64,000 nucleotides of DNA from Escherichia phage dhaeg, in sequence record MN850609.1; one strand, written 5' to 3'. Both the position numbers and the translations under genes were made by a program. Of the stretch, positions 48 to 8,991 are shown in pieces; within the stretch, counting starts at the first letter, position 1, and each line of letters starts with the position of its first letter. The notes under the pieces are model-generated. The model did not search any database, was not told where the DNA came from, and saw only the letters and a program-made list of their open reading frames with translations.

Positions 48-122
48 GGATGTGTAGCTCAGTGGTAGAGCAGTTGACTGTTAATCAATTGGTCCATGGT
101 TCGAATCCATGCATGTCCGCCA
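48..122 (+). tRNA. tRNA-Asn (anticodon GTT)
   Basis: Cloverleaf by hand: acceptor GGATGTG/CATGTCC, D-arm GCTC..GAGC, anticodon stem GTTGA/TCAAT loop CTGTTAA, T-loop TTCGAAT, CCA end. Confidence 0.65.
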
Positions 123-126
123 AATA

Positions 127-202
127 CGAGGCATAGCTCAGAAGGAAGAGCAAGGACCTTCTAAGTCCTGGGTCGTAGGTTCGATCCCTACTGTCTCGAC
201 CA
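127..202 (+). tRNA. tRNA-Arg (anticodon TCT)
   Basis: Cloverleaf: acceptor CGAGGCA/TGTCTCG, anticodon stem AGGAC/GTCCT loop CTTCTAA, T-arm GTAGG-TTCGATC-CCTAC, CCA; T4 encodes tRNA-Arg(UCU). Confidence 0.8.
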
Positions 203-2622: not shown

Positions 2623-3177
2623 ATGAGTTTATATGATAACCTTATATCAAATATTGATTGGTTTAAAAATAGTGGTCTTTCCCATGAAACCAATTCAGTT
2701 CTTTATAGAATTCGCCAAGACCTAGGCTATTCAAACGATTTCTTAAGCAGAACATCTAGCCGTGGCGATACTACCAAATTACCTTTTATTTTTGCTTTAG
2801 CTGAAGACCTTTCTTTTGAAGATGCTTTGGAAATTATTGACGTAAATCTGGCTATTCAACGAGTGGAATTCGCTGGACTACGTTATTCAGTATATTCTTT
2901 AAATGAGAGCAATGATTGCGTGCTTCTTAATATGGCAGACGATGATTACCATTTAGTATGCTATGTGGCTTTAGAAAATGGTGATGTATTTGGAATGGTC
3001 GACCGCCGCCCAACTTATACTGATATTAAAAATTATGATAAAGATGAGCTTCTTGATTTGGCGGCTGAGTACACATTAGAGAGTCGTAAACGGAAACGTA
3101 AGCTTAATCGTTTTATTGCTGAATGTCGTGAATATGCTAAAGGGGTTCAAAATGCGAACGTTATATCTGCCAAGTAA
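2623..3177 (+). CDS. Hypothetical protein
   Basis: SD GGAGGAGAGGAGAATATTATG. Confidence 0.65.
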   Translation: MSLYDNLISNIDWFKNSGLSHETNSVLYRIRQDLGYSNDFLSRTSSRGDTTKLPFIFALAEDLSFEDALEIIDVNLAIQRVEFAGLRYSVYSLNESNDCVLLNMADDDYHLVCYVALENGDVFGMVDRRPTYTDIKNYDKDELLDLAAEYTLESRKRKRKLNRFIAECREYAKGVQNANVISAK

Positions 3178-3511
3178 ACCAGAAAAATTTGTATACGCAG
3201 ACAAGATTGATAAAGACCTTATGCCTCCATTTGGGGCTCTGTCCATGTGCATCGTTGGAATTATAATGATGGTTGTTTGTGGAGATATGAATATCATCAG
3301 TGTTGGAGTCGCCTGGACGCTAGTAATTACAGCTCCTTTTATTACAGTCCTGTGTATGGTATTGATAAATGTGTGGCATCAAAATCATATGAATAAAGGA
3401 TATCGTGGGCGAGTTAAAGAGTGGGAACAAAAATGTGTTTCCCTACAAGAAGAGCACAAAATTAAATGTGCCGAAGAATTTATTAAGGAGGTTCGTAATG
3501 GAACGGCCTAA
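3152..3511 (+). CDS. Hypothetical membrane protein
   Basis: ATG 3152 after SD AGGGG; two long hydrophobic segments. Confidence 0.5.
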   Translation: MRTLYLPSKPEKFVYADKIDKDLMPPFGALSMCIVGIIMMVVCGDMNIISVGVAWTLVITAPFITVLCMVLINVWHQNHMNKGYRGRVKEWEQKCVSLQEEHKIKCAEEFIKEVRNGTA

Positions 3512-3851
3512 TCTTGCATCACATGTTTATCAATTGGCTGAATATGATATTGGTGCCAATTTATTATTAGGGATTGCCACCGGTATGCTTGGCGGCTTGG
3601 TTGGTCTGGTAATGACCACGGTTATGGCTGCAATCGAGGGAGTCATGCCCATTGAGATGGGTTTCTATATGATAATCGCTCCGGCTGTCGTGGCTTATTT
3701 TATCCCTCTAGTGTATGATATTTGCCATACAAATGCTTTGAATGCTCCCATCCGTAAGAGATATGCTTTAGAGATGGCTAATTATAATGAGTATGTAAAA
3801 CAAACCAAACGTAATGACCTTGAAACCTTTATTAAGGAATGTAAATCATGA
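3498..3851 (+). CDS. Hypothetical membrane protein
   Basis: ATG 3498 after SD AAGGAGG; hydrophobic segments LLLGIATGMLGGLVGLVMTTV and YMIIAPAVVAYFIPLV. Confidence 0.55.
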   Translation: MERPNLASHVYQLAEYDIGANLLLGIATGMLGGLVGLVMTTVMAAIEGVMPIEMGFYMIIAPAVVAYFIPLVYDICHTNALNAPIRKRYALEMANYNEYVKQTKRNDLETFIKECKS

Positions 3852-4138
3852 ATAAAATTGAAATTGAAATCCCTGAATACAACGACGAGAAATCTGCAGA
3901 AAAAGCTATCTATGCTCTTCTGAATAAAGTAGATATCATCGAATCCAAATGTGAAGCTATTGCCGATAAGTACGGTATTCAATTCGGAACAGGTGATTAT
4001 GGCTCAGGACGTACATACTATCCGGTCGGTTATGAATGCTCCCAGTGGTTTAAAGATGAAATTGAAAACAATGGCGGTGAAGTTGAAAATGGCGTCGTTA
4101 CAGTTGGTGCCTGGGTCTCCTCTTCGGCAATGTGCTAA
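3848..4138 (+). CDS. Small protein, member 1 of tandem family with C-terminal W-x-SSS-x-x-C tail
   Basis: ends ...GAWVSSSAMC; SD+ATG; shares ADKY...GDY motif with member 2. Confidence 0.65.
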   Translation: MNKIEIEIPEYNDEKSAEKAIYALLNKVDIIESKCEAIADKYGIQFGTGDYGSGRTYYPVGYECSQWFKDEIENNGGEVENGVVTVGAWVSSSAMC

Positions 4139-4147
4139 GGAAAAGCT

Positions 4148-4429
4148 ATGATGAATGATAATCATAACCATCCAGAGCTTCTGGCCGCAGTAAAAGAAAT
4201 TCATGAAGCTATTCGTCGTGCCGAGGAAATTGCAGATAAATATGAGACTCATTTTAATATATACCCTGCTCGCGGTATGGGCGGTGACTATTATTCTCCT
4301 GGCGCCTTGAAAGCTGACCTTGCCCATTGGGAAGAAGATGGTCATCCTGAATGGGCTATTGTTAATACTCATGACTATACAACTGACCTCGCAACTGGCG
4401 GTTGGGTGTCCTCTTCTTCTGAATGTTAA
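4148..4429 (+). CDS. Small protein, member 2 of W-x-SSS-x-x-C family
   Basis: ends ...GGWVSSSSEC; SD TAAGGAAAAGCTATG. Confidence 0.65.
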   Translation: MMNDNHNHPELLAAVKEIHEAIRRAEEIADKYETHFNIYPARGMGGDYYSPGALKADLAHWEEDGHPEWAIVNTHDYTTDLATGGWVSSSSEC

Positions 4430-4438
4430 GGAAATATT

Positions 4439-4636
4439 ATGTCTCGTGAATTAGATTGTGCAATCCGAACTGCCGCGGCGGCAATTGAAAACGTTATTCA
4501 AATTTGTAAAGAAGAACGCGAAGAAGCTGATATCTATATTGATGGTGCTCGTGACTTAGAACGACATATAACGCTTTATAACGGTTGTATTACTATTAGT
4601 GGTACCTCTTGGGTGTCCTCTTCTTACGAATGCTAA
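4439..4636 (+). CDS. Small protein, member 3 of W-x-SSS-x-x-C family
   Basis: ends ...TSWVSSSYEC; SD TAAGGAAATATTATG. Confidence 0.65.
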   Translation: MSRELDCAIRTAAAAIENVIQICKEEREEADIYIDGARDLERHITLYNGCITISGTSWVSSSYEC

Positions 4637-4645
4637 GGTAATAAA

Positions 4646-4858
4646 ATGACTATTGATGAAATTGAAAAACAAATCCGTGAATTAGTACGTAAAGGCCAGT
4701 CCGTGGCTGATGAAACAGGTGAAGAATTTTATGTTTCTGGACGCGGTCAATACATTTCTCCAAAGAATCCAGAATATGATGATTACGAATGGGTCCGTGA
4801 TGACTACGGTATCCCAGAAGGTGAAGGTTTCTGGTTTAGCTCCTCTATGTCTTGCTAA
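4646..4858 (+). CDS. Small protein, member 4 of W-x-SSS-x-x-C family
   Basis: ends ...GFWFSSSMSC; SD TAAGGTAATAAAATG. Confidence 0.65.
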   Translation: MTIDEIEKQIRELVRKGQSVADETGEEFYVSGRGQYISPKNPEYDDYEWVRDDYGIPEGEGFWFSSSMSC

Positions 4859-4868
4859 GGAATAAAAA

Positions 4869-5093
4869 ATGTCTAATATTAATGAATTGGAAAAAGCAGC
4901 TCTTGAACTGGCTGCGCTGTATAAGAAAGTAAAAGATATGGCTTCTGCCCAGGATTTTGGTGTTGAGCTAGATGATTACGACGGTGAAGTTCGTCTTGAA
5001 GATTGGCTGAATAGCTCTTGTTATGGTGAAGAAGCTGGTCGTACCTTCGTTGCTCGCTCCGATGGTAAAATCTGGTACCCGAGCTCATGCTAA
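4869..5093 (+). CDS. Small protein, member 5 (diverged) of W-x-SSS-x-x-C family
   Basis: ends ...KIWYPSSC; SD TAAGGAATAAAAAATG. Confidence 0.6.
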   Translation: MSNINELEKAALELAALYKKVKDMASAQDFGVELDDYDGEVRLEDWLNSSCYGEEAGRTFVARSDGKIWYPSSC

Positions 5094-5314
5094 AATTAAA
5101 GAAAAGATACATTCGTAAAATAAATGGTCTTCGCGATTATGCCAAAGGTTGGCCGTTAAGTATTATTATGGCTGATAGACACCCACGTTATAATACCGAG
5201 TTGACCTATTATAAAAAGTATGATTCATATTGTCGGTCTAAAGCCGGTCGTTTAGATGGTTCTTATGAAGAATACTTTGGTAAAAAACCTACTCGTATTT
5301 CGTTAGGAAAATAA
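5087..5314 (+). CDS. Hypothetical basic protein (uncertain)
   Basis: ORF only; no clear SD. Confidence 0.3.
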   Translation: MLKLKKRYIRKINGLRDYAKGWPLSIIMADRHPRYNTELTYYKKYDSYCRSKAGRLDGSYEEYFGKKPTRISLGK

Positions 5315-5344
5315 TTTAGCCACACGGATGTGGTAGGAGGACTT

Positions 5345-5674
5345 ATGCACAAAGATTCAGTATTCAAATATCTTTTGAAAACAGATAAAGAATTCTATAT
5401 GAATGGGCAAGCTTTCTTGTTCGTCCGTGGTAAACGTGAGATGTTTTATAAATGCGACCTCTCAATGCACCATCATATGTATCATACCCACGGCGAGCCT
5501 ATACTAGGGTTCTCTGGTGACGAGACTAGACACATAGCTATGTACTATGACCATTTTAAGCTCAATGATTGTGGTGACAACGCTTTGGTCTGGAACCCAT
5601 CTTGGAGACGTTGGGATACAGTAGACAGCGATAAATTATTTTTAGAATATTGCAGAAGTGATGTACAACTCTAA
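5345..5674 (+). CDS. Hypothetical protein (His-rich segment)
   Basis: ATG 5345 after SD GGAGGA. Confidence 0.55.
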   Translation: MHKDSVFKYLLKTDKEFYMNGQAFLFVRGKREMFYKCDLSMHHHMYHTHGEPILGFSGDETRHIAMYYDHFKLNDCGDNALVWNPSWRRWDTVDSDKLFLEYCRSDVQL

Positions 5675-6160: not shown

Positions 6161-7120
6161 ATGATGCTAGTTATTGGTTCTCGTGCACTGCACCACGCTG
6201 GTCTGATTGAAAGTAAGTATATCGAAAATTCTGATTGGGATTTTATTGCCGACCAGGGGTCATGGAATAATTTTAAAGCACAGATGTTTGGCGCCCATGT
6301 ACACGTAGACAACCCTGACGTCCAGGCTTTTAAATGCATGCACAACGGTAAAGAAACCTATTTTGAAGCTTATATCGTCCGCGCCTTGACTAACGTACGT
6401 GAAATTACCGGCGAACTCCAAGATGAGGATTTCACCTCAAGCTACCGCCTTCTGAATTATGCTAAAACACATATTAAGAAAGATCGGATGACGGGTTTCT
6501 ATTGGGCCACGCCTGATATCTGTCTGGCCATCAAAATGAGCCATCGTTATTTGAAGAACAACCCTTTCTTTTTGAAGACGATGTCCCACATCAAATACCT
6601 TCGTAATAAAGGTGTAACCTTGAATGAAGAGCTCCAAGAAATCATGCTGCAACGTCAGAAAGAAACGTTGAGCTATTCTCATCCTAAATTAGATGTAAAC
6701 AAATCATCGTTCTTTAATGATACCATCTATACATTAGACCACGACTCTATTCATGAAGCTGTGGCATTAGCCGGACGCCCAGCGTATACCTTTTATATGA
6801 AAGATGGTTCTGAAGTCATGACCTCTCGTGAGAAGTTTGAAGCTTTGCCTGAAGCTATTAAACTGGCAGGGGTTTATGAAGAAGCATGTGTACTTGCTCT
6901 AGAGCGTTCGCAGGTTCCTAATGACTTTAATATCCCAGCAGCCACAAGTTTCTATATGGCTCTTGAGAAAGTGTGCACCTCAATCACTTCAGGTTGGTTC
7001 CGTGAGTATGCCTGGGAAAACTACCAAGCTGTAGTGAATATGTATAGGACCCTAGGTGAAAGTGACTACATCAACCGGTTTAAGCGTAATCAACATTTAA
7101 TTCGTCCTTTCGAAAAATAA
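6161..7120 (+). CDS. Hypothetical protein (319 aa), accessory region
   Basis: Long ORF, SD GAGGAAAATATTATG; no motif confidently recognised. Confidence 0.7.
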   Translation: MMLVIGSRALHHAGLIESKYIENSDWDFIADQGSWNNFKAQMFGAHVHVDNPDVQAFKCMHNGKETYFEAYIVRALTNVREITGELQDEDFTSSYRLLNYAKTHIKKDRMTGFYWATPDICLAIKMSHRYLKNNPFFLKTMSHIKYLRNKGVTLNEELQEIMLQRQKETLSYSHPKLDVNKSSFFNDTIYTLDHDSIHEAVALAGRPAYTFYMKDGSEVMTSREKFEALPEAIKLAGVYEEACVLALERSQVPNDFNIPAATSFYMALEKVCTSITSGWFREYAWENYQAVVNMYRTLGESDYINRFKRNQHLIRPFEK

Positions 7121-7717: not shown

Positions 7718-8404
7718 ATGAACAGCCCAAAAACTTTTAATTCTCAAGCTCGTGCAGTAGGCGGTTTCGCTGGTAAAATTTCTAACGATAAAATCAAAAA
7801 CGAAACTATGTTCTTCAACAGCTCATTGGCTTTCGCTTTTGATAATGGTGGCCCTATTACTCGTAGCTTTATAATGAGTCTGCCGGATGATTGGAACACC
7901 GACCAGGTTGTATTTGATTCTCGGGTTCATATGCTGATGCCTGGTTGGTATCCTGCTATCCCAGGTTATCACCATGATGATGTACCACGCCCGGATATTC
8001 CGGTTGGTCAACACTTTATTACTGCAGGGCAACCTGATTATGATAACCCTCGATACCATTCTGAACATATTCTTGGTCTTGTTAACGCTGATGTGTGTCC
8101 TACTTATTTTGCAACCGGAACTGCACAATTTAGCCAGATTCCTGATGGCGAACTTATCTATCGCCAGTGGCATAAAGAAGTTCTGGAAAAAATTGAGTCT
8201 AATGAATTAACCAAGTGGGATGCTCCTGACCGTACATTGCTCCAGTTTGATTGGCAGACATGGCATACAGGTTCCCGTGCAGTAAGTAACGGATGGCGCT
8301 GGTTTGGTCGTGTGTCTCGTAATACCGACCGTGTTAAAAAGATTACAAATGAAATCCGCGTTAATGCTCAAGTATATCTGGAATTCCCTATGGAGGGCTG
8401 GTAA
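7718..8404 (+). CDS. Hypothetical protein (228 aa)
   Basis: SD GAGGAAAATATTATG. Confidence 0.7.
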   Translation: MNSPKTFNSQARAVGGFAGKISNDKIKNETMFFNSSLAFAFDNGGPITRSFIMSLPDDWNTDQVVFDSRVHMLMPGWYPAIPGYHHDDVPRPDIPVGQHFITAGQPDYDNPRYHSEHILGLVNADVCPTYFATGTAQFSQIPDGELIYRQWHKEVLEKIESNELTKWDAPDRTLLQFDWQTWHTGSRAVSNGWRWFGRVSRNTDRVKKITNEIRVNAQVYLEFPMEGW

Positions 8405-8991
8405 TGGCCCTTTATGAACCTGGTTGCATGGGTGTTGATGTAAACTTCATCCGTCGGTCTGAAAATGCCGGAATCATTATCCCAAATGGTGAGAATATGA
8501 TTATTAAAAAGTCCTGGCGAAATATTGATGATGCTGATGAAGGAATTTCAGCCAGTACAGTAGATTGGTCAGGATGTACTGCTGAAATGAAACAACTTTT
8601 AATTGAGGAATATAAAATGGGCTATATCGTAAATGGTTGGCAACCGGAACCCCATAAAGAACAGACGCCAGACCCATTGATTTGTTATAGCAAAAAATAC
8701 GGCTTCCGTACATGGAGTGATGAATACGACAAATTGGTGAGTTCTAGGTTCTATGTTTGGATGGGGATATTATTTTTCCCACTCCTAGGGTTTTTCCTGA
8801 CAACGGATAATGACCTGCCTATTACGCTATTTGCTTCAGCGATGTCTGCGGCTATCTTAGGACTTATCGCATCATTTTTATGGACTGCAGTTATTGAAGT
8901 ACCTTTTCGTATTTCTAAAGTTAAAAAGGTATATGACGATATCACTAAGAAAAATACATTAAACTCTTTTATTGAGGAATGCCGTAAATGA
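8404..8991 (+). CDS. Hypothetical protein with C-terminal transmembrane segments
   Basis: Start overlaps previous stop (TAATG); hydrophobic C-terminal half. Confidence 0.7.
   Translation: MALYEPGCMGVDVNFIRRSENAGIIIPNGENMIIKKSWRNIDDADEGISASTVDWSGCTAEMKQLLIEEYKMGYIVNGWQPEPHKEQTPDPLICYSKKYGFRTWSDEYDKLVSSRFYVWMGILFFPLLGFFLTTDNDLPITLFASAMSAAILGLIASFLWTAVIEVPFRISKVKKVYDDITKKNTLNSFIEECRK

What the first reader, a model, noticed from the sequence alone, without database searches (positions are those of the whole stretch)
3848..5093. Tandem array of five small paralogous proteins with a conserved C-terminal W-x-S-S-S-x-x-C tail
Five consecutive ORFs (96, 93, 65, 70, 74 aa) each end in ...W(V/F)SSSxxC-stop (AWVSSSAMC, GWVSSSSEC, SWVSSSYEC, FWFSSSMSC, and a diverged IWYPSSC). 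Each is immediately followed by TAAGG-A/T-rich-ATG of the next member. N-terminal parts are divergent but helical; members 1 and 2 share an (A/E)IADKY...GDY motif. The strictly C-terminal Cys after a Ser-rich stretch suggests a shared interaction or modification tag rather than a fold-stabilising residue. This looks like a fast-evolving accessory family expanded by unequal recombination, with variable heads on a constant tail.
Basis: seen in the sequence. Interest (0 to 1): 0.6.

Follow-up and report, generated by a model that had tools for sequence, protein, structure and literature searches.

The report
Cys-tailed small proteins partnering phage nucleotidyltransferase
Five neighbouring small genes of a T4-like coliphage encode old, conserved acidic proteins that share a Trp-Ser-Ser-Cys C-terminal tail, and across very different large phages such proteins almost always sit next to one uncharacterised nucleotidyltransferase gene, pointing to an unstudied two-part phage system.

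Summary
Five back-to-back ORFs (3848-5093, + strand) end in W-x-S-S-S-x-x-C (the fifth in W-Y-P-S-S-C plus an internal W-L-N-S-S-C). No other ORF in the 64 kb has this tail. The window is a Dhakavirus (JS98-like T4-type phage).

All five genes are under purifying selection (dN/dS 0-0.57). Serine codons from both codon boxes exclude a nucleotide-level explanation.

The "fast-evolving, recently expanded" reading is wrong. Each paralogue has its own orthologue in other genera, at 40-68% identity against 20-40% between paralogues.

The tail belongs to about 190 protein clusters, strongly acidic, usually with a single terminal Cys, and with no Pfam, NCBIfam or PDB relative.

New finding: tail-bearing ORFs (1-6 per locus) lie directly beside a 300-330 aa protein (here 6161-7120, DUF7277+DUF7275). 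This held in 74 of 81 unbiased viral loci (odds ratio 113, p 6e-129), across T4-like, rV5-like, Otagovirus, jumbo and marine phages. That protein is predicted to be a Pol-beta-type nucleotidyltransferase, closest to MenT1, ANT(2'') and TglT. Short-form homologues lacking Cys272 have no tail proteins nearby.

Best reading: the tail is the handle or acceptor through which this enzyme engages a set of small proteins. Whether they are substrates or regulators is unresolved.

The parts
3848..4138 (+). Member 1 (96 aa, pI 4.3). It has a long N-terminal helix, the YGSGRTYYP core and the tail AWVSSSAMC (tail codons 4112-4135).
   Evidence: phrog_899 E 3e-23. dN/dS 0.07-0.12. AF2 pLDDT 88.9, pTM 0.74. 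Orthologues in Klebsiella phage (53%) and Aeromonas phiAS4 (41%).
4148..4429 (+). Member 2 (93 aa, pI 4.8). Core RGMGGDYYSP, tail GWVSSSSEC (tail codons 4403-4426).
   Evidence: phrog_899 E 1e-18. dN/dS 0-0.35. Orthologues RB69ORF137c (52%) and Klebsiella phage (56%).
4439..4636 (+). Member 3 (65 aa, pI 4.5). The head lacks the YGMGG core. Tail SWVSSSYEC (tail codons 4610-4633).
   Evidence: phrog_4882 E 2e-36. Family HMM E 2e-13. dN/dS 0-0.08. Orthologue RB69ORF136c (57%).
4646..4858 (+). Member 4 (70 aa, pI 4.2). Tail FWFSSSMSC (tail codons 4832-4855). This is the least constrained member.
   Evidence: phrog_899 E 1e-14. dN/dS 0.06-0.57. Orthologue in Klebsiella phage (40%).
4869..5093 (+). 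Member 5 (74 aa, pI 4.3), the 'double-motif' type. It has an internal WLNSSC (5004-5021) and a terminal WYPSSC (5073-5090).
   Evidence: phrog_899 E 4e-10. dN/dS 0-0.06. The same double-motif type occurs in Klebsiella (68%), Aeromonas CC2 (49%) and phiAS4, and rV5-like ESCO13 (42%).
6161..7120 (+). Partner gene: a 319-aa DUF7277+DUF7275 protein, predicted to be a bi-lobed Pol-beta-type nucleotidyltransferase. Invariant residues include G6, S7, D25, D27, E69, K125, H128, K139, D193, H194, D195, H198, R249, K270 and C272.

Best explanation
The five ORFs are genuine early-region genes for small, strongly acidic proteins of an old, phage-restricted superfamily. Its hallmark is a strictly C-terminal G-x-W-x-S-S-(x-x)-C tail. 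They are one half of a conserved two-gene-type module. The other half is the Pol-beta-type (MenT/ANT-like) nucleotidyltransferase encoded about 1 kb downstream (6161-7120). The tail is the common element through which this enzyme engages a repertoire of different small proteins. My committed mechanism is that the enzyme uses the tail as an acceptor, transferring a nucleotide (NMP) onto a tail Ser hydroxyl or the terminal Cys, so that one enzyme tags 1-6 distinct acidic 'head' proteins per phage. Shown here: the genes are real, the tail is conserved at protein level, the paralogues are ancient, linkage to the enzyme gene is near-obligate, and the enzyme has a nucleotidyltransferase fold and signature. 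Inferred: physical interaction through the tail (about 0.5-0.6) and covalent nucleotidylylation (about 0.35). What the tagged proteins do afterwards is unknown. Their acidity suggests mimicry of nucleic acid (possibly tRNA) or of a host factor during takeover or counter-defence.
Against: There is no direct evidence of interaction or modification, and no complex model could be run. AF2 puts the Trp strand and the Ser-capped helix of member 1 into the fold rather than leaving them as a free peptide. The closest structural relative, MenT1, acts on tRNA 3' ends, not proteins, and is controlled non-covalently by a small upstream-encoded protein (PMC10435456, PMC11375011). In this window four unrelated small ORFs separate the array from the enzyme. 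Seven of 81 loci lacked a regex or HMM hit, though at least three of these have variant tails. T4-like genomes are broadly syntenic, so part of the linkage within Straboviridae is inherited rather than independently maintained. The Cys272 co-variation rests on only four short-form loci.
Confidence: 0.4

Rival explanations
1. The small proteins are antitoxin-like regulators or specificity adaptors. They bind the nucleotidyltransferase non-covalently, with the tail docking in or near the active-site cleft and perhaps pairing its Cys with enzyme Cys272 or a metal. In this way they switch the enzyme off, trigger its auto-phosphorylation on Ser7, or direct it to different RNA or protein targets, much as MenA1 controls MenT1.
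Confidence: 0.3
2. The small proteins are independent acidic host-takeover or anti-defence proteins, such as nucleic-acid mimics. The tail is simply the fold-closing C-terminal element of an old domain. The neighbourhood with the nucleotidyltransferase reflects co-inheritance or co-expression in an accessory early region rather than direct partnership.
For: AF2 integrates the tail into the fold. The proteins are acidic like known phage mimic proteins. In this window unrelated ORFs separate the array from the enzyme. T4-like genomes are strongly syntenic.
Against: The linkage holds across unrelated phage groups (Straboviridae subfamilies, Stephanstirmvirinae, Otagovirus, jumbo phages, marine contigs) while all other neighbours change. 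The tail persists on heads that the family HMM no longer recognises. Tail proteins are absent next to short-form enzymes, and both genes are absent together from T4.
Confidence: 0.12
3. The small proteins bind or carry a nucleotide product of the enzyme, or sequester a host signalling nucleotide. The binding pocket would be formed by the conserved aromatic residues, Gly-rich loop, Ser and Cys (Y51, G52, G54, Y57, W89, S92, S93, C96).
For: The invariant residues are aromatic, Gly, Ser and Cys, as in small-ligand pockets. Small oligomeric phage 'sponge' proteins are a known class (own knowledge). The genes are adjacent to a nucleotidyltransferase.
Against: Members without the YGMGG core (type 3 and the 140-170 aa forms) keep only the tail. 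There is no structural match to known sponges. The spatial clustering of these residues could not be inspected because no coordinates were available.
Confidence: 0.08
4. The ORFs are RiPP-like precursors, in which tail Ser residues are dehydrated and cross-linked to the terminal Cys (lanthionine-type), or the tail is otherwise processed into a small peptide.
For: A tandem array of small paralogous genes lies next to a single enzyme gene, and the S-S-S-x-x-C spacing resembles lanthionine ring motifs.
Against: No LanB/C/M, YcaO, radical-SAM, protease or exporter was found among neighbours by Pfam. The conserved part is the putative 'core' and the variable part the 'leader', the reverse of RiPP logic. 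The proteins are predicted to be folded. The partner is a Pol-beta nucleotidyltransferase.
Confidence: 0.03
5. The repeat is a nucleotide-level feature (an RNA structure, or a ribosome-binding or termination signal), or the ORFs are not expressed.
For: The stop codon plus AAGGA Shine-Dalgarno context recurs after each member. One weak terminator-like hit lies at 4601-4617, although the number of such hits equals that in shuffled controls.
Against: dN/dS is well below 1. Ser positions use both codon boxes, Cys uses both codons and the stop codon varies. The motif is conserved in phages with unrelated DNA sequence.
Confidence: 0.01

Closest known systems
MenA1-MenT1 (MenAT1) nucleotidyltransferase toxin-antitoxin system of M. 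tuberculosis (PMC10435456, PMC11375011)
   Different: There is no sequence relationship: the enzyme hits DUF7277/DUF7275, not DUF1814, and the small proteins have no solved relative. Here there are 1-6 acidic partners sharing a C-terminal W-S-S-C tail. The system is encoded by virulent phages, and essentially absent from bacterial genomes (5 MAG contigs only). Toxicity and tRNA activity are untested.
HepT-MntA type VII toxin-antitoxin system (PMC7641770)
   Same: A minimal Pol-beta nucleotidyltransferase covalently (poly)adenylylates an adjacent small partner protein on a hydroxyl side chain. This is a precedent for the proposed chemistry.
   Different: In that system the partner is a HEPN RNase modified on Tyr. 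No HEPN motif or domain is present here. Here there are many partners per enzyme, and the enzyme carries a large helical C-lobe.
ANT(2'')-Ia and LnuA antibiotic nucleotidyltransferases
   Different: They act on small-molecule substrates, are about 160-180 aa, and have no partner proteins. One phage homologue is annotated 'putative antibiotic resistance protein', probably for this reason.
RiPP precursor arrays (for example prochlorosin ProcA genes with one ProcM); own knowledge
   Same: Several small paralogous genes lie in tandem beside a single enzyme gene, with a Ser/Cys-containing motif.
   Different: Here the constant element is the C-terminal motif and the variable part is a folded head. 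No RiPP maturase, protease or exporter is present.
PHROG 899 / PHROG 4882, RB69ORF136c-139c, JS98 gp125-129 (catalogued hypothetical proteins)
   Same: This is the same family.
   Different: They are catalogued only as 'unknown function'. No paper in the searchable library mentions them, DUF7275/7277 or phrog_899. The tail motif and the linkage to the enzyme appear undescribed.

Membership tests
PHROG 899 / 4882 (phage proteins of unknown function) | Significant match to the family profile | tested here: met
   Members 1, 2, 4 and 5 match phrog_899 at E 3e-23, 1e-18, 1e-14 and 4e-10. Member 3 matches phrog_4882 at E 2e-36.
W-S-S-C tail superfamily (defined here) | Strictly C-terminal G-x-W-x-[SAPN]-S-S-(x-x)-C, small size and acidic composition | tested here: met
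   All five ORFs carry the tail. 135/148 relatives end in Cys. Median pI is 4.46. Tail logo.
W-S-S-C tail superfamily (defined here) | Encoded next to a long-form DUF7277+DUF7275 nucleotidyltransferase on the same strand | tested here: met
   The enzyme gene lies at 6161-7120, 1.07 kb downstream. 74/81 unbiased loci show the linkage.
MenT/AbiEii (DUF1814) nucleotidyltransferase toxins (for the partner enzyme) | Bi-lobed Pol-beta nucleotidyltransferase fold | tested here: met
MenT/AbiEii (DUF1814) nucleotidyltransferase toxins (for the partner enzyme) | Sequence membership in Pfam DUF1814 or PADLOC AbiE models | tested here: not met
   Pfam returns only DUF7275 and DUF7277. PADLOC gives no hit at E<=1. 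A PDB profile search gives no hit.
MenT/AbiEii (DUF1814) nucleotidyltransferase toxins (for the partner enzyme) | Catalytic hG[ST] and DxD motifs with a third carboxylate | tested here: met
   G6, S7, D25, D27 and E69 are invariant in 39 homologues and in all 29 locus copies, except E69 in a few.
MenT/AbiEii (DUF1814) nucleotidyltransferase toxins (for the partner enzyme) | Growth toxicity and nucleotide addition to tRNA 3' ends | not testable with these tools
   This needs expression and tRNA-seq experiments.
MenA1-type small antitoxin (for the five ORFs) | Small ORF directly upstream of, and co-directional with, the nucleotidyltransferase gene | tested here: met
   The median gap is 30 nt in IMG/VR loci. 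In this window the last member ends 1.07 kb upstream.
MenA1-type small antitoxin (for the five ORFs) | Sequence or fold similarity to a solved antitoxin | tested here: not met
MenA1-type small antitoxin (for the five ORFs) | Neutralises the cognate enzyme | not testable with these tools
   This needs co-expression or in vitro assays.
RiPP precursor peptides | Adjacent recognised RiPP maturase (LanB/C/M, YcaO, rSAM), protease or exporter | tested here: not met
   Pfam scans of neighbours and precomputed Pfam families in related loci show none.
RiPP precursor peptides | Conserved leader with a hypervariable core | tested here: not met
   The pattern is reversed: the C-terminal motif is constant and the N-terminal part varies.
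HEPN/MNT (HepT-MntA) pair | The partner carries a HEPN domain with an Rx4-6H motif | tested here: not met
   No Pfam hit in any of 60 members. No such motif appears in the alignments.

The most novel reading that the evidence does not exclude
Large virulent phages carry a dedicated protein-tagging system. One MenT/ANT-like Pol-beta nucleotidyltransferase recognises a short C-terminal W-x-S-S-(x-x)-Cys tag and covalently nucleotidylylates it on a whole repertoire (1-6 per phage) of small acidic effector proteins. The products could be protein-nucleotide conjugates that imitate a tRNA acceptor end or another nucleic-acid ligand and so disarm host translation-targeting defences. This would be a new type of enzyme-plus-tag system on folded proteins, with RiPP-like gene logic.
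Probability: 0.3. Interest if true: 0.85.

Novelty: new variant of a known kind. Interest (0 to 1): 0.62.

Why it matters
The module is present in hundreds of sequenced phages. By tblastn, the enzyme is in 734 of 50,697 phage records and member 1 in 370. These include well-used model and therapy phages (RB69, JS98, rV5-like and Klebsiella, Acinetobacter, Aeromonas and Pseudomonas myoviruses), as well as marine viromes. It is absent from T4, which probably explains why it was never studied. It joins an enzyme class now known from bacterial toxin-antitoxin and abortive-infection systems (MenT/AbiEii) to a previously unrecognised partner family with an unusual, chemically suggestive terminal motif. 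Resolving it could show how phages use or regulate nucleotidyltransferases during takeover or counter-defence. It might also define a new short tag for enzyme-directed protein modification. More practically, the work corrects misleading database annotations and supplies a simple rule (tail regex plus enzyme adjacency) for annotating hundreds of 'hypothetical' genes.

Tried and rejected
- **Foldseek against BFVD** returned only uncharacterised members of the same family. The afdb50 library was unavailable.
- **The search for related loci with the 60-sequence alignment** failed because no stretch was conserved enough. I replaced it with back-translated DNA patterns.
- **Nucleotide-level explanation** was rejected on codon evidence. 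Promoter and terminator scans gave no more hits than shuffled controls, and no T4 late-promoter box lies near the array.
- **Recent duplication or fast evolution** was rejected on orthology and dN/dS.
- **A T4 homologue** was sought over the whole T4 genome in five overlapping loci. There is no enzyme hit at E<=1 and no family member. A marginal hit to gp24.2 (E 0.012) lacks the tail.
- **A third conserved component** was sought among the neighbours. None is shared by more than 15/114 loci.
- **P0241**, an apparent fusion of a lipoprotein-like N-terminus to the C-lobe, comes from a single 3-kb contig and was not pursued.
- **Literature searches** for DUF7275/7277, phrog_899, the RB69 ORF names, and phage nucleotidyltransferase with C-terminal cysteine found nothing on this module. 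The QatB/QueC lead was irrelevant.
Full report
**Source and observation.** The window is a Dhakavirus, a JS98-like T4-type coliphage. It is 96% identical to phages dhabil and CLB_P2 over 3400-5400. The region lies in the accessory early region between the tRNA genes and e/nudE.

The five ORFs exist exactly as described: 3848-4138, 4148-4429, 4439-4636, 4646-4858 and 4869-5093, all on the + strand. Their tails are AWVSSSAMC, GWVSSSSEC, SWVSSSYEC, FWFSSSMSC and IWYPSSC. Member 5 also has an internal WLNSSC. The genes are 9-10 nt apart, with the TAA stop overlapping an AAGGA ribosome-binding site. A six-frame scan finds this tail nowhere else in the 64 kb.

**Real genes, selected as proteins, and old.**
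- Against six related phages, Nei-Gojobori dN/dS is 0.07-0.12 for member 1, 0-0.35 for member 2, 0-0.08 for member 3, 0.06-0.57 for member 4 and 0-0.06 for member 5.
- In 35 distinct family genes the Trp codon is fixed, but the Ser positions use both TCN and AGY codons, Cys uses TGC or TGT, and the stop is TAA, TGA or TAG. The conservation is therefore at protein level.
- Paralogues within the window are 20-40% identical. Each nevertheless has a clear counterpart elsewhere: m1 with Klebsiella phage at 53%; m2 with RB69ORF137c at 52%; m3 with RB69ORF136c at 57%; m4 with Klebsiella at 40%; m5 with Klebsiella at 68%, Aeromonas CC2 at 49% and rV5-like ESCO13 at 42%.

The array is thus an ancient set of specialised paralogues, not a recent or fast-evolving expansion.

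**The family.** An exhaustive profile search found 190 cluster representatives (50% identity level) at E<=1e-3, nearly all 65-120 aa, with the match running to the last residue. Of the 148 examined, 135 end exactly in Cys and most of the rest have one extra residue.

The consensus is an N-terminal helix (..EAExIADexG.xFxF), a YGMGGTYYP (or YGSGRTYYP) hairpin, an acidic Trp-rich linker, and then G-x-W-x-S-S-S-x-x-C. The linker often holds extra W-x-S-S-x-C copies. Invariant residues are Ala39, Gly54, Trp89, Ser92 and Cys96 in member 1 numbering.

The proteins are strongly acidic (median pI 4.46, net charge -8.4), and 83/148 have the terminal Cys as their only Cys. This excludes an intramolecular disulfide or metal cluster.

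AF2 on member 1 (pLDDT 88.9) predicts a long helix packed on a small sheet, with the tail as the last strand plus a one-turn Ser-capped helix.

**The key new finding: a partner enzyme.** While comparing distant phages I noticed that family members are always followed by a homologue of window ORF 6161-7120 (319 aa, Pfam DUF7277+DUF7275). I then tested this in both directions.

*From the small-protein side.* A DNA pattern for YGMGGTYYP pulled 13 IMG/VR loci, including contigs of 119-389 kb. All 10 with enough downstream DNA have the 319-aa homologue on the same strand, mostly within 100 bp.

*From the enzyme side.* Tail proteins lie next to the homologue in each of these:
- Klebsiella phi1_175008, with five tail proteins
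- a Tara marine contig
- Pseudomonas Otagovirus phiPsa347
- rV5-like ESCO13
- Acinetobacter phage Apostate
- the 350-kb Salmonella phage Munch
- Stenotrophomonas Ps15, where they lie just downstream
- five MAG contigs

.

*In an unbiased sample.* The sample was 114 IMG/VR loci retrieved by the enzyme motif CTSITSGWFRE. Of the 81 with at least 1 kb of upstream DNA, 74 have 1-6 tail or family ORFs. The nearest lies a median of 30 nt from the enzyme ORF. Tail-pattern ORFs number 188 of 2,529 in the neighbourhood against 8 of 11,301 elsewhere (odds ratio 113, p 6e-129). At least three of the seven 'negatives' carry variant tails.

No other gene around the window's array is shared by more than 15 of the 114 loci. 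Of the adjacent tail-bearing ORFs, 73 of 188 are not recognised by the family HMM, and their heads range from 35 to 172 aa. The tail, not the head, is therefore what travels with the enzyme. T4 itself has neither gene anywhere in its genome.

**What the enzyme is.** Thirty-nine homologues share invariant G6, S7, D25, D27 and E69, the Pol-beta nucleotidyltransferase signature. They also share a conserved C-lobe set: K125, H128, K139, H174, D193, H194, D195, H198, R249, K270 and C272.

The family is large: 2,277 clusters at 90% identity and 734 phage records. It is essentially confined to phages; a scan of 185,579 bacterial species genomes gave five hits, all MAG contigs.

Four short-form homologues of 251-263 aa (Streptomyces, Gordonia and two Vibrio phages) keep the catalytic motifs. 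They have Ile in place of Cys272, lack R129, R165, H174 and R281, and have no tail ORF within 3 kb. The sample is small, but the co-variation suggests these long-form residues serve the tail proteins.

**Mechanism.**
- *Shown:* a conserved two-component gene module consisting of a nucleotidyltransferase and 1-6 small acidic proteins with a common C-terminal W-S-S-C tail.
- *Inferred:* the tail is the element the enzyme recognises.

I favour the acceptor model, in which an NMP is transferred to a tail Ser or Cys (about 0.35). Four observations point that way:
- Apart from Trp, the universally conserved tail residues are nucleophiles.
- One enzyme serves many anciently diverged partners.
- Some partners carry repeated motif copies.
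- Fold neighbours ANT(2'') and Lnu nucleotidylylate hydroxyl groups, and MntA adenylylates its partner protein (PMC7641770).

The main rival (about 0.3) is a MenA1-like regulator or adaptor. MenT1, the best structural match, is controlled by a small, helical, upstream-encoded protein that blocks the active sites and induces auto-phosphorylation of the G[ST]-motif residue (PMC10435456, PMC11375011). The phage enzyme has an invariant Ser7 at that position, and the partners are acidic. Against this rival stand the number of conserved paralogues and the fact that a C-terminal peptide, not a helix, is the constant element.

Less likely readings are independent acidic effectors linked only by synteny, nucleotide carriers or sponges, RiPP-like precursors, and a nucleotide-level signal.

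**Limits.**
- No complex prediction or experiment was possible.
- Only member 1 and the enzyme were modelled, and model coordinates could not be inspected.
- ORF boundaries in the bulk analyses run from the preceding stop codon, so the distances are approximate.
- The IMG/VR sample required Cys272 by construction.
- Linkage within Straboviridae is partly inherited.

**Novelty.** The ORFs are catalogued (PHROG 899 and 4882, RB69ORF136c-139c) but have no assigned function. I found no publication on them, on DUF7275/7277, or on the linkage. I rate this as a new variant of a known kind: a nucleotidyltransferase with small partner proteins, here with a distinctive partner superfamily and tag.

Noticed in passing
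window 2623-3177, 3116-3511, 3498-3851, 8404-8991 (+): A second family with a C-terminal motif lies in the same accessory region. Four ORFs (homologues of e.5-like, e.4, e.3 and e.2, mostly predicted membrane proteins) each carry F-I-x-E-[CV]-[RK] within their last 25 or so residues. They are the only four ORFs in the 64 kb with this motif. RB69 e.2-e.5 and ORF133c show it too.
   Followed up: partly
L004 3989-4295 (RB69 69734-70040): RB69ORF139c and RB69ORF138c are the two halves of a single member-1 orthologue split by a frameshift. The second half ends in AWVSSPALC. This is either a pseudogene or a sequencing error in AY303349.
   Followed up: partly
window 5087-5314 (+): A 75-aa, very basic ORF (pI 10.0) starts inside member 5's last codons (ATGCTAA overlap). 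It is highly constrained (dN/dS 0-0.18) and matches phrog_7065, of unknown function. Its charge is opposite to that of the acidic array, and it is restricted to this lineage (1 of 114 loci).
   Followed up: partly
window 4004-4372 (-), and GenBank records MK234886, MW250787 and others: A 122-aa antisense ORF overlaps members 1 and 2. Phage AnYang's record annotates that antisense ORF instead of the real genes. UPEC07 labels family members 'tail completion protein' and 'major capsid protein'. The enzyme is variously annotated 'prohead assembly scaffold protein', 'putative antibiotic resistance protein', 'HNS-dependent protein' and 'putative nucleotidyltransferase'.
   Followed up: no
L032 (Streptomyces phage Beuffert), L039 (Gordonia phage Abscondus), L040, L041: Short-form homologues of the nucleotidyltransferase (251-263 aa, with KTITSLTKGW instead of KVCTSITSGW) have no tail proteins nearby. 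In the actinophages they lie next to an RNA ligase gene or just upstream of a tRNA gene cluster, which hints at an RNA or tRNA-related ancestral role.
   Followed up: partly
window 48-202 (+): tRNA-Asn(GTT) and tRNA-Arg(TCT) genes lie at the start of the window, about 3.6 kb upstream of the array on the same strand.
   Followed up: no
L026 3202-3384; L029 1170-1682; L030 1700-1876; L025 2681-3115: Some array members in other phages have lost or altered the terminal Cys. Examples are ..EWTSSSQN..LWQSSDQ..NWSNSES and ..GWISSSICW. Cys is therefore near-universal but not absolutely required.
   Followed up: no
L157 6436-7446 (T4 nrdC.11): T4 lacks the module but carries a different gene annotated as a nucleotidyltransferase, nrdC.11. 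It gives no hit to the enzyme profile at E<=1.
   Followed up: partly
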